Positions 22,677 through 22,912 of a DNA stretch of 64,000 bases are shown here, in pieces. Every line of letters starts with the position of its first letter. Within the stretch, counting starts at the first letter, position 1. Both the position numbers and the translations under genes were made by a program. Source of the stretch: Escherichia coli (lineage in GTDB: Bacteria > Pseudomonadota > Gammaproteobacteria > Enterobacterales > Enterobacteriaceae). The stretch lies in the NCBI RefSeq assembly GCF_045037415.1, contig NZ_CP173438.1; one strand, given 5' to 3'. The notes under the pieces were generated by a model. It searched no databases, was not told where the DNA came from, and saw nothing but the letters and a program-made list of their open reading frames with translations.

Positions 22677-22856
22677 CTCGCTTTGCTCCTGACAGTTTGG
22701 TCACATAAAGGCGCAGAACATCACCATTTTTGCCAAAAACCTTCAGAAGACGATGAGTAAGACGCGTCGTAACTATATGATTATTTGATATTCATACACA
22801 CCATTATGTCCGGATAATTTGCCATAATTATTTGAATTTATTGCACAAAGCGACCA

Positions 22857-22912
22857 ATTTAAAATCCCTCGGCGTTCGCGCTGTGCGGGTTCAAGTCCCG
22901 CTCCGGGTACCA
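22857..22912 (+). tRNA. leuZ: 3' fragment (anticodon loop to CCA) of tRNA-Leu(UAA) leuZ; phage att core copy, not a complete tRNA
   Basis: ATTTAAAATCCCTCGGCGTTCGCGCTGTGCGGGTTCAAGTCCCGCTCCGGGTACCA matches leuZ 3' part by recall; no 5' half upstream. Confidence 0.85.

What the first reader, a model, noticed from the sequence alone, without database searches (positions are those of the whole stretch)
22700..22912. att junction: 56-nt 3' leuZ copy with AT-rich arm region
Identity to leuZ begins in the anticodon loop and runs to CCA with no 5' half upstream. That is the expected att site of a tRNA-targeting integrase. The preceding AT-rich 150 bp (repeated ATTATTTGA motifs) likely carries arm-type or IHF sites.
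Basis: partly seen in the sequence, partly recalled or inferred. Interest (0 to 1): 0.35.

Follow-up and report, generated by a model that had tools for sequence, protein, structure and literature searches.

The report
Prophage right end at leuZ tRNA
This is the ordinary right-hand junction (attR) of a roughly 42.6 kb prophage inserted in the E. coli leucine tRNA gene leuZ; the only addition is that the duplicated block is 125 bp, not 56, and also copies the small regulatory RNA 3'ETS-leuZ and its terminator.

Summary
Window 22857-22912 is an exact 56-nt copy of leuZ from the last anticodon-stem base (A31) to CCA. It has no 5' half, and no tRNA gene is called anywhere in the window.

The interpretation as an att junction is also right. 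In a collinear genome, 99.975% identical over window 1-24149 (AR_0089), intact glyW-cysT-leuZ, a tyrosine integrase and an excisionase lie about 42.6 kb upstream. K-12 shows the uninterrupted leuZ-yecA site. 431 of 5426 complete E. coli genomes share this junction.

Two corrections:
- **Repeat length.** The direct repeat is 125 bp (22857-22981). It runs through the whole 67-nt 3'ETS-leuZ sRNA and its terminator.
- **ATTATTTGA motifs.** The two copies coincide with IHF-consensus matches (one mismatch each). These sit at positions conserved in three free-phage attP sites: mEp390, Fostie and ZF40. The likelier integrase arm-type sites are weak copies of TCCGAAGAT at 22743-22751 and 22806-22814.

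In a lysogen of a related phage, sequence differences show that strand exchange occurs left of position +28. This places it at or just 3' of the anticodon loop. By analogy, the window fragment is displaced host DNA and the working leuZ 3' half is phage-supplied.

This is a known kind of site (an anticodon-centred tRNA-gene att site) at a documented E. coli prophage integration site. Interest is low.

The parts
1..22856 (+). Right-hand ~22.9 kb of the prophage: antiterminator Q, lysis genes, terminase, portal, capsid, contractile tail, gpD-like gene and a lipoprotein cargo gene. The left ~19.7 kb, with int, xis and the regenerated leuZ, lies outside the window.
   Evidence: Collinear with NZ_CP032265.1 (L001 25754-49901), 99.975% identical.
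22217..22636 (+). Last prophage gene before the junction: a 139-aa predicted lipoprotein (cargo gene). It is followed by a hairpin at about 22644-22672.
   Evidence: phrog_890 'lipoprotein', E 2.5e-52. The N-terminus reads ...LALVGC (sequence, translated by eye).
22743..22751 (+). Candidate integrase arm-type site P1 (TCAGAAGAC, 7/9 match to the P' repeat TCCGAAGAT), at -115 from the core.
   Evidence: It is the best +-strand match in the 200-bp P arm. mEp390 (9/9) and Fostie (7/9) match their own P' repeat at the same position, and ZF40 does so 2 nt away at -113 (8/9). On its own it is not significant (P about 0.13).
22778..22790 (-). IHF-like site H1 (TATCAAATAATCA; one mismatch to WATCAANNNNTTR).
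   Evidence: IHF-like matches lie at -80 to -88 in three of the four attP sites. The P arm holds 3 matches against 0.38 expected (P = 0.008).
22806..22814 (-). Candidate arm-type site P2, inverted (ATGTCCGGA; its reverse complement matches TCCGAAGAT 7/9), at -52.
   Evidence: Inverted copies of each phage's own P' repeat lie at -51/-52 in mEp390 (9/9), ZF40 (9/9) and Fostie (8/9). In this phage the -52 match ties with one at -119.
22825..22837 (-). IHF-like site H2 (ATTCAAATAATTA; one mismatch).
   Evidence: An IHF-like match starts at exactly -33 on the minus strand in all four attP sites.
22858..22864 (+). Anticodon-loop heptamer TTTAAAA, the proposed strand-exchange (overlap) segment of the core.
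   Evidence: The identity block starts one base to its left. In a related lysogen the crossover lies left of +28. Every integrase relative with enough flank carries TTTAAAATCC at the junction. The exact cut sites are inferred.
22857..22912 (+). Displaced 3' fragment of leuZ (A31 to CCA, 56 nt).
   Evidence: no tRNA call.
22913..22979 (+). Copy of the 3'ETS-leuZ small RNA (67 nt), including its terminator hairpin at about 22957-22980.
   Evidence: Identical to K-12 b4759 as annotated; hairpin seen in the fold.
22857..22981 (+). The full 125-bp direct repeat, i.e. the attR copy of the attL/attR identity block.
   Evidence: Exact match to L001 5998-6122.
23108..23773 (+). yecA, the first host gene to the right of the junction.

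Best explanation
Window 22857-22981 is attR, the right junction of a roughly 42.6 kb temperate prophage. The prophage has lambda-like head genes, a P2-like contractile tail, and int-xis at its left end. A tyrosine integrase that targets the anticodon stem-loop of leuZ, tRNA-Leu(UAA), inserted it.

The phage attP carries its own copy of everything from the anticodon loop to the end of the transcription unit: the 3' half of the tRNA, the 67-nt 3'ETS-leuZ trailer and the terminator. Strand exchange at or near the 7-nt anticodon loop joins the host 5' half to this phage copy. That regenerates a working leuZ operon end at attL, next to int.

The AT-rich 115 bp to its left is the phage P arm. It most likely holds two integrase arm-type sites, at -115 (direct) and -52 (inverted), alternating with two IHF bending sites at about -80 and -33. 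The two ATTATTTGA motifs are those IHF-like sites. Two exact TCCGAAGATG repeats lie on the P' side, between the terminator and the int stop codon, outside the window.

Shown: the junction anatomy, the empty site, the partner junction, and the family-wide link between this integrase type and this target. Inferred: the cut positions, protein binding to the proposed sites, and that this copy of the prophage can still excise.
For: - **Fragment and repeat.** The 56-nt fragment and the 125-bp exact repeat match attL in AR_0089.
- **Partner junction.** Intact glyW-cysT-leuZ, an integrase (PF00589 and PF22022) and an excisionase (phrog_1266) lie at the other end.
- **Empty site.** K-12 has the uninterrupted site.
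- **Spread.** 431 of 5426 genomes share the junction.
- **Free phages.** mEp390 (attP annotated by its depositors), Fostie and ZF40 have integrases 63-64% identical to this one. They share the layout: AT-rich arm, core, tRNA 3' half, trailer with terminator, tandem repeats, int stop.
- **Family-wide target.** All 32 viral-contig integrase relatives with more than about 200 bp beyond the int stop (25 loci with the motif and 3 without it, plus 4 in the set) were checked. 29 loci carry the TTTAAAATCC core beyond int.
- **Crossover.** In E. coli 2017C-4173W12, which carries a related phage, the attL copy has phage-type differences from +28 onward and the attR copy is K-12 type. The crossover therefore lies left of +28, and the attR copy is host DNA.
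- **Arm sites.** Each phage's own P' repeat has its best P-arm matches at -113/-115 (+) and -51/-52 (-).
- **IHF sites.** IHF-consensus matches lie at -33 in all four attPs and at -80 to -88 in three.
- **General principle.** Regenerated tRNA gene plus displaced fragment, with anticodon-centred attP as the commonest class: PMC4383910. leuZ is listed as a prophage site in STEC (PMC8767318).
Against: - The window itself does not contain attL, int or the intact leuZ. The partner junction is shown only in a collinear, 99.975% identical genome.
- The two copies of the 125-bp block are identical, so the crossover point cannot be mapped for this phage. It is inferred from a relative.
- The proposed P1 and P2 arm sites match the P' repeat only 7/9 and are not individually significant (P about 0.13). 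In this phage the -52 match ties with one at -119.
- The integrase N-terminal 63 residues hit no Pfam arm-binding domain.
- IHF-consensus matches are easy to find in AT-rich DNA.
- The window copy has three single-base indels that frameshift late genes, so it may no longer be a viable phage.
Confidence: 0.93

Rival explanations
1. The junction is a fossil. The prophage is defective and the att site is no longer used, so it is a scar rather than a working recombination site.
For: Compared with AR_0089, the window copy has +A at 9118 (major capsid gene), -G at 10933 and +A at 21774 (gpD-like gene), each splitting an ORF. The gpD split also appears in record ON470624, so at least that one may be real.
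Against: Both 125-bp copies, the P arm, int and xis are intact in the collinear genome. Excision needs int, xis and the att sites, not capsid genes. Single-base indels can be assembly errors. The gene set is otherwise complete.
Confidence: 0.3
2. Integration and excision use the whole 125-bp identity block. Exchange could occur anywhere in it, including by RecA-dependent homologous recombination, rather than at a defined anticodon-loop overlap.
For: 125 bp of perfect identity is long enough for some homologous exchange. The two copies here are identical, so nothing in this genome locates the crossover.
Against: In the related lysogen L088, every difference from +28 onward segregates as phage type at attL and host type at attR. 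Identity starts exactly at the anticodon stem-loop in all family members, whatever the host's trailer sequence. Free phages mEp390 and Fostie have trailers only about 87-89% identical to E. coli.
Confidence: 0.07
3. The repeated ATTATTTGA motifs are the integrase arm-type sites, and IHF is not involved.
For: The two exact 9-mers lie 47 bp apart in the P arm, and the window holds 4 copies against 0.68 expected.
Against: The motif is absent from the P' arm between the terminator and int, where this phage has two exact TCCGAAGATG repeats. Both copies match WATCAANNNNTTR with one mismatch. In the three relatives the same positions (-33 and about -80 to -88) hold IHF-like matches even though their P' repeats differ.
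Confidence: 0.12
4. It is a tRNA pseudogene from a local duplication or a chance match, unrelated to any mobile element.
For: None beyond the bare existence of a partial tRNA copy.
Against: The fragment sits exactly at the boundary between phage and host DNA when compared with K-12. The same boundary is shared with an int-bearing prophage in 431 genomes, and chance expectation is 0.
Confidence: 0.01

Closest known systems
Anticodon-centred (class A) tRNA-gene att sites of tyrosine-integrase islands and prophages (Williams 2002 classification, recalled from memory; Islander database, PMC4383910)
   Same: A displaced 3' tRNA-gene fragment lies at one end. The regenerated gene and the integrase lie at the other. 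Identity starts at the anticodon stem-loop, and the element restores the gene.
   Different: Nothing essential. The identity block extends 69 bp past the CCA, covering the 3'ETS-leuZ and the terminator, so the element restores the end of the whole transcription unit and not only the tRNA.
Lambda attP (P1-H1-P2-...-H2-core-H'-P'1-3) with heterobivalent Int, IHF and Xis (textbook knowledge, from memory)
   Same: Arm-type candidates alternate with IHF-like sites on the P arm, tandem arm repeats abut the int stop codon on the P' side, and an excisionase gene lies next to int.
   Different: The target is a tRNA gene rather than the gal-bio spacer. The P' repeats lie about 139-151 bp from the core because the tRNA half, trailer and terminator intervene. 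Integrase similarity to lambda Int is only about 25% over the catalytic part. The N-terminal domain matches no Pfam arm-binding family. No binding has been shown.
attP sites of free phages mEp390 (JQ182729), Fostie (PP925832) and Pectobacterium phage ZF40 (JQ177065)
   Same: Integrases 63-64% identical to this one, the same core, the same order of elements, and the same positions for repeats and IHF-like sites.
   Different: Their arm-repeat sequences differ: TTCGCCAT, TTCATAAT and TTCCTAATAT against TCCGAAGATG. Their tRNA and trailer copies are diverged (about 87-89% to E. coli for mEp390 and Fostie). The phage backbones also differ: mEp390 is placed in Hendrixvirinae and carries an HK022-like tail fibre, whereas this prophage has a contractile tail.
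3'ETS-leuZ sRNA sponge of E. coli K-12 (b4759; function per Lalaouna et al. 2015, recalled from memory)
   Same: The 67-nt sequence and terminator are identical.
   Different: The window copy is cut off from the glyW-cysT-leuZ promoter and from the tRNA 5' half, so its normal route of production is missing. No expression evidence exists.

Membership tests
tRNA-gene-integrated prophage, anticodon-centred att site | A displaced 3' tRNA-gene fragment lacking the 5' half, in the same orientation as the gene | tested here: met
   Window 22857-22912 equals leuZ nt 32-87; the upstream 32 nt are unrelated; no tRNA is called.
tRNA-gene-integrated prophage, anticodon-centred att site | A regenerated intact tRNA gene at the other end, forming a direct repeat with the fragment | tested here: met
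   L001 5967-6053 is tRNA-Leu, and the 125-bp exact repeat is L001 5998-6122. This was shown in a collinear, 99.975% identical genome, not in the window itself.
tRNA-gene-integrated prophage, anticodon-centred att site | A tyrosine integrase gene adjacent to the regenerated tRNA gene | tested here: met
   L001 6184-7200 (-): PF00589 and PF22022, phrog_1 integrase.
tRNA-gene-integrated prophage, anticodon-centred att site | An uninterrupted (empty) target site exists in other strains, with exact boundaries | tested here: met
   K-12 leuZ-3'ETS-yecA is continuous. It matches attL on the left and attR on the right.
tRNA-gene-integrated prophage, anticodon-centred att site | Strand exchange within the anticodon loop | tested here: inconclusive
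   The copies are identical in this phage. In the related lysogen L088 the crossover is left of +28, which is compatible with the loop but does not resolve the cut sites.
Lambda-type heterobivalent integrase system (arm sites, IHF, Xis) | The same short motif repeated on both arms of attP | tested here: inconclusive
   The P' arm has 2 exact TCCGAAGATG. The P arm has only 7/9 matches, but they lie within 2 nt of the positions (-115, -52) used by three relatives, two of which match 8-9/9.
Lambda-type heterobivalent integrase system (arm sites, IHF, Xis) | An N-terminal arm-binding domain in the integrase | tested here: inconclusive
   Residues 1-63 precede the core-binding domain and match no Pfam family. 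Their sequence classes track the P' repeat class across relatives, but shared descent confounds this.
Lambda-type heterobivalent integrase system (arm sites, IHF, Xis) | IHF binding sites between the arm sites and the core | tested here: met
   At sequence level only: one-mismatch consensus matches at -33 (all 4 attPs) and -80 to -88 (3 of 4); 3 matches in the P arm against 0.38 expected. Binding cannot be tested here.
Lambda-type heterobivalent integrase system (arm sites, IHF, Xis) | An excisionase gene next to int | tested here: met
   L001 7169-7432 (-): phrog_1266 excisionase, E 5e-35.
3'ETS-leuZ sRNA | Sequence of the 67-nt spacer with its terminator | tested here: met
   Identical to K-12 b4759.
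3'ETS-leuZ sRNA | Made by processing of the glyW-cysT-leuZ precursor | tested here: not met
   The window copy is separated from that operon by the prophage and lacks the tRNA 5' half. One promoter-like match lies upstream, which is no more than chance. Expression cannot be tested here.

The most novel reading that the evidence does not exclude
leuZ prophages may act on the 3'ETS-leuZ sRNA sponge as well as on the tRNA. Every lysogen carries two copies. The copy still attached to the tRNA operon is the phage's own. It is identical to the host's here, but diverged in its 5' part in relatives such as the prophage of strain 2017C-4173W12 and in mEp390 and Fostie. The displaced host copy at attR might be transcribed from phage or P-arm signals, for example the weak promoter-like TTCATA-16-GATAAT at 22791-22818. 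If so, the dose or regulation of a sponge for RyhB and RybB would change. My searches of the held paper library found no paper that clearly makes this link.
Probability: 0.08. Interest if true: 0.5.

Novelty: already known. Interest (0 to 1): 0.15.

Why it matters
The practical value is in annotation. The junction fixes the exact right boundary of a prophage carried by about 8% of complete E. coli genomes. It also shows that 22857-22981 is displaced host DNA, not a tRNA pseudogene or a gene. Some deposited records annotate a 46-aa ORF across it.

The comparison also gives a testable map of the attP arms for a family of leuZ-targeting integrases, which could help integrase bioprospecting. A minor point of wider interest is that these phages copy a host regulatory sRNA and its terminator along with the tRNA half. 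In lysogens of diverged relatives, the working 3'ETS-leuZ is therefore of phage origin.

Tried and rejected
- **Second copy in the window.** I looked for the repeat or an intact leuZ in the window and found none. The partner lies outside the window, so a collinear genome was used.
- **'Phage' records ON470596, ON470604, ON470624 and ON470627.** They looked like free-phage evidence for this element. ON470624 runs into yecA, so it is a prophage prediction; the other three share the same coordinates and were assumed to be the same.
- **Phage 520873.** Its record also includes yecA.
- **Terminator and promoter scan.** It missed the known leuZ terminator and gave one promoter-like hit, no more than chance, so no expression claim is made.
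- **Rfam.** No family matches the region, at gathering or at E <= 1.
- **NCBIfam.** No hits for int, xis or the lipoprotein.
- **P arms of viral contigs.** Several of them (L012-L014, L071, L073, L077) carry arm motifs of a different class from their own P' repeats. They may be tandem or hybrid junctions, so the arm test used only the three free phages and this prophage.
- **Literature searches.** Searches linking 3'ETS-leuZ to prophages, or leuZ to attP, returned nothing clearly relevant; the four papers holding both 'ETSleuZ' and 'prophage' were not opened.
- **Small ORFs across the site.** The ORFs of 25-46 aa were judged spurious.

Full report
**1. The observation**

Window 22857-22912 reads ATTTAAAATCCCTCGGCGTTCGCGCTGTGCGGGTTCAAGTCCCGCTCCGGGTACCA. 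This is identical to nt 32-87 of the 87-nt K-12 leuZ gene, tRNA-Leu(UAA). It starts at the last base of the 5' strand of the anticodon stem (A31 by my reading of the cloverleaf), runs through the loop TTTAAAA, and ends at CCA.

- The 32 nt to its left bear no resemblance to the leuZ 5' half.
- ARAGORN calls no tRNA anywhere in the 64-kb window.
- A 52-nt probe from the fragment occurs once, with zero expected by chance.
- No Rfam family matches the region, even at E <= 1.
- The DNA to the left is AT-rich: 36% GC for 22700-22856 and 33% for 22760-22856, against 49.8% for the window.
- ATTATTTGA occurs at 22780-22788 and 22827-22835; the window holds four copies against 0.68 expected.

**2. The repeat is longer than reported**

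The junction region (22200-23200) is covered at 80% or more in 431 of 5426 complete E. coli genomes. One of them, strain AR_0089 (NZ_CP032265.1, locus L001), is collinear with window 1-24149 at 99.975% identity. In that genome the order is as follows:

- pgsA, glyW, cysT and an intact leuZ (L001 5967-6053);
- a tyrosine integrase on the opposite strand (6184-7200);
- a small DUF4224 protein (7169-7432);
- about 42 kb of phage genes;
- the fragment, then yecA.

The exact direct repeat between the two ends is 125 bp: L001 5998-6122 equals window 22857-22981. It consists of the 56 nt of leuZ, the whole 67-nt feature that K-12 annotates as the small regulatory RNA 3'ETS-leuZ (b4759), and two further bases. 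It therefore includes the terminator hairpin AAACCACC-UUCG-GGUGGUUU followed by a U run.

K-12 has the uninterrupted sequence leuZ-3'ETS-terminator-GTGCCTGCAAC...-yecA. It matches attL on the left side and the window on the right side. The insertion is thus bounded to the base, give or take the repeat.

**3. What it is**

The neighbour of the regenerated leuZ has a tyrosine-recombinase catalytic domain (PF00589, residues 165-325) and a phage-integrase central domain (PF22022, residues 64-155). The next gene is an excisionase (phrog_1266, E 5e-35).

The element has repressor-type regulators, a replicative helicase, antiterminator Q, holins and an endolysin. It also has terminase, portal, protease, decoration and capsid proteins, and a contractile tail with baseplate. 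It is a complete-looking temperate phage of about 42.6 kb. The window holds its right 22.9 kb, and the fragment is its attR.

This is the standard signature of integration into a tRNA gene. The element restores the split gene, and the displaced fragment marks the far end. Anticodon-centred sites are the commonest class (PMC4383910). leuZ is listed among prophage integration sites in STEC O121:H19 (PMC8767318). The 125-bp block occurs 7103 times in 5424 genomes, up to four times per genome. That leaves up to 1679 extra copies, so leuZ is a busy site.

**4. Evidence from relatives**

A search of phage records with a reconstructed attP found the block in two free phages: mEp390, whose depositors annotated it as a putative attP, and Fostie. 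The tRNA part alone was found in Pectobacterium phage ZF40. In each case it lies just beyond the 3' end of an integrase gene.

These integrases are 63-64% identical to the one here. All four attP sites have the same order of elements:

- an AT-rich arm;
- TTTAAAATCC;
- the tRNA 3' half;
- a trailer ending in a terminator hairpin;
- two to four tandem direct repeats;
- the int stop codon.

A scan of viral contigs found 316 relatives of the integrase, of which the best 80 were kept. I checked the 32 of those 80 loci with more than about 200 bp beyond the int stop. In 29 loci the same anticodon-loop core is present. It is preceded either by the tRNA 5' half (attL) or by unrelated DNA (attP or a tandem junction). 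The link between this integrase type and this target holds across the family.

**5. Where the exchange happens and which copy is which**

In this phage the two copies are identical, so the crossover cannot be located. E. coli 2017C-4173W12 carries a different leuZ prophage with a related integrase. There the two copies differ:

- The copy joined to the leuZ 5' half has a compensated T-stem change (C to T at +28, G to A at +42), several trailer changes, and a different terminator loop.
- The copy next to yecA is K-12 type throughout.

All differences from +28 onward therefore segregate as phage type at attL and host type at attR. The exchange lies between the start of identity and +28, which is at or just 3' of the anticodon loop.

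By analogy, window 22857-22981 is the original host DNA, displaced from its promoter. The 3' half of the working leuZ, its 3'ETS and its terminator are supplied by the phage. This step is an inference for the window's phage. The 7-nt loop as the overlap region follows the usual model for this class and has not been shown here.

**6. The AT-rich arm**

*Arm-type candidates.* For each of the four attPs I took the phage's own P' tandem repeat and searched its 200-bp P arm. The repeats are TCCGAAGAT(G) here, TTCGCCATT in mEp390, TTCATAATA in Fostie and T(T)CCTAATAT in ZF40.

| Phage | Best + strand match (position, match of 9) | Best - strand match (position, match of 9) |
|---|---|---|
| This prophage | -115, 7/9 | -52, 7/9 (tied with -119) |
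| mEp390 | -115, 9/9 | -51, 9/9 |
| Fostie | -115, 7/9 | -51, 8/9 |
| ZF40 | -113, 8/9 | -52, 9/9 |

Each phage's own motif fits these two places at least as well as any other phage's motif. For this prophage the Fostie motif ties at the -115 site. In window coordinates the sites are 22743-22751 (+) and 22806-22814 (-).

Taken alone, the matches in this phage are weak (P about 0.13). Their weight comes from their position, which agrees with relatives whose matches are perfect. The class of P' repeat also tracks the sequence class of the integrase's first 60 or so residues, as expected for an arm-binding domain. Shared descent confounds this, and that segment has no Pfam match.

*IHF-like sites.* The consensus WATCAANNNNTTR, with one mismatch allowed, hits the minus strand at exactly -33 in all four attPs and at -80 to -88 in three of them. 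The P arm here holds three hits against 0.38 expected (P = 0.008).

The most likely layout is P1, H1, P2, H2, core. This resembles the lambda P arm (textbook knowledge). The P' repeats lie at +139 and +151, beyond the tRNA half and terminator. A further one-mismatch IHF-like match lies inside the 3'ETS DNA at +73, both here and in ZF40. I attach little weight to it.

**7. Rivals**

- **Local duplication or chance.** Excluded.
- **Exchange anywhere in the 125 bp, or by homologous recombination.** Not excluded for this phage, but contradicted in the relative and by the fixed left boundary across the family.
- **ATTATTTGA as the arm-type site.** Unlikely, because the motif is absent from the P' arm and the positions hold IHF-like matches in phages with other arm repeats.
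- **A dead site.** This stays open. The window copy differs from AR_0089 by three substitutions and three single-base indels. The indels are +A at 9118 in the major capsid gene, -G at 10933, and +A at 21774 in the gpD-like gene, and each splits an ORF. The gpD split recurs in another deposited record. Excision would not need these genes, and some of the indels may be assembly errors.

**8. Comparison with what is known, and novelty**

This is a member of a well-described kind: an anticodon-centred tRNA-gene att site of a tyrosine-integrase prophage, at a site already listed for E. coli prophages. It is present in hundreds of RefSeq genomes.

Two things seem not to have been spelled out in the papers I could search:

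- The identity block takes in the 3'ETS-leuZ sRNA, which I recall is described as a sponge for RyhB and RybB (Lalaouna et al. 2015, from memory).
- In lysogens of diverged relatives, the operon-linked 3'ETS is therefore the phage's variant.

The segment just before the terminator (RTGTCGT) is kept in all phage-borne trailers seen, across several host genera. This fits a conserved host trailer that the phages mirror.

Whether the displaced copy in the window is ever transcribed is unknown. The one promoter-like match upstream is no more than chance.

**9. Verdict**

The arm details are refined but rest on sequence comparison only. The finding is ordinary and already known in kind, so interest is low.

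Noticed in passing
window 9118, 10933, 21774: Three single-base indels relative to the AR_0089 copy of the prophage: +A in the major capsid gene, -G in a head/tail gene, and +A in the gpD-like gene. Each splits an ORF (8670-9125/9133-9705, 10568-10948/10945-11247, and 21006-21779 truncated). They are either real decay of the prophage or assembly errors. The gpD split also appears in ON470624.
   Followed up: partly
window 22217-22636 (+), hairpin about 22644-22672: The last prophage gene before attR encodes a 139-aa predicted lipoprotein (phrog_890; the N-terminus ends ...LALVGC). It is followed by its own hairpin and looks like a cargo gene. It has no NCBIfam match.
   Followed up: partly
L012-L014 (viral contigs), about 170 bp upstream of the core: An integrase 99-100% identical to this prophage's is preceded by a different P arm, one carrying ATGGCG-type motifs. 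L071, L073 and L077 also mix arm classes. These may be tandem arrays or hybrid junctions of different elements at leuZ. The 125-bp block occurs up to four times per genome.
   Followed up: partly
L003 2500-2620 (mEp390), L005 (Fostie), L088 attL: The phage-borne leuZ 3' halves carry a compensated T-stem pair change (C to T at +28 with G to A at +42). Lysogens therefore express a hybrid tRNA-Leu. Fostie also has G to C in the acceptor 3' strand, which would mispair with an E. coli 5' half.
   Followed up: no
Trailers in ours, mEp390, Fostie, ZF40, L034, L071, L077 (about +95 to +105 from the core): The motif RTGTCGT just upstream of the terminator hairpin is kept in every phage-borne trailer, although the rest of the trailer diverges. 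From memory, this is the part of 3'ETS-leuZ that pairs with RyhB.
   Followed up: no
ON470596.1, ON470604.1, ON470624.1, ON470627.1; NC_049344.1: ON470624 and NC_049344, deposited as complete phage genomes, run into the host gene yecA, so they are prophage predictions with host flank. The other three ON records share the same match coordinates and are probably the same. ON470624 also annotates a 46-aa ORF (window 22773-22913, minus strand) across the tRNA fragment, which is almost certainly spurious.
   Followed up: yes
window 53071-53378 (+) and 41123-41200 (-): Rfam calls MicL sRNA (371 bits) and C0465 RNA (112 bits) in the host part of the window. They are unrelated to the finding.
   Followed up: no
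E. coli plasmid records: Three copies of the 125-bp leuZ/3'ETS block lie on plasmids rather than chromosomes. They were not examined.
   Followed up: no
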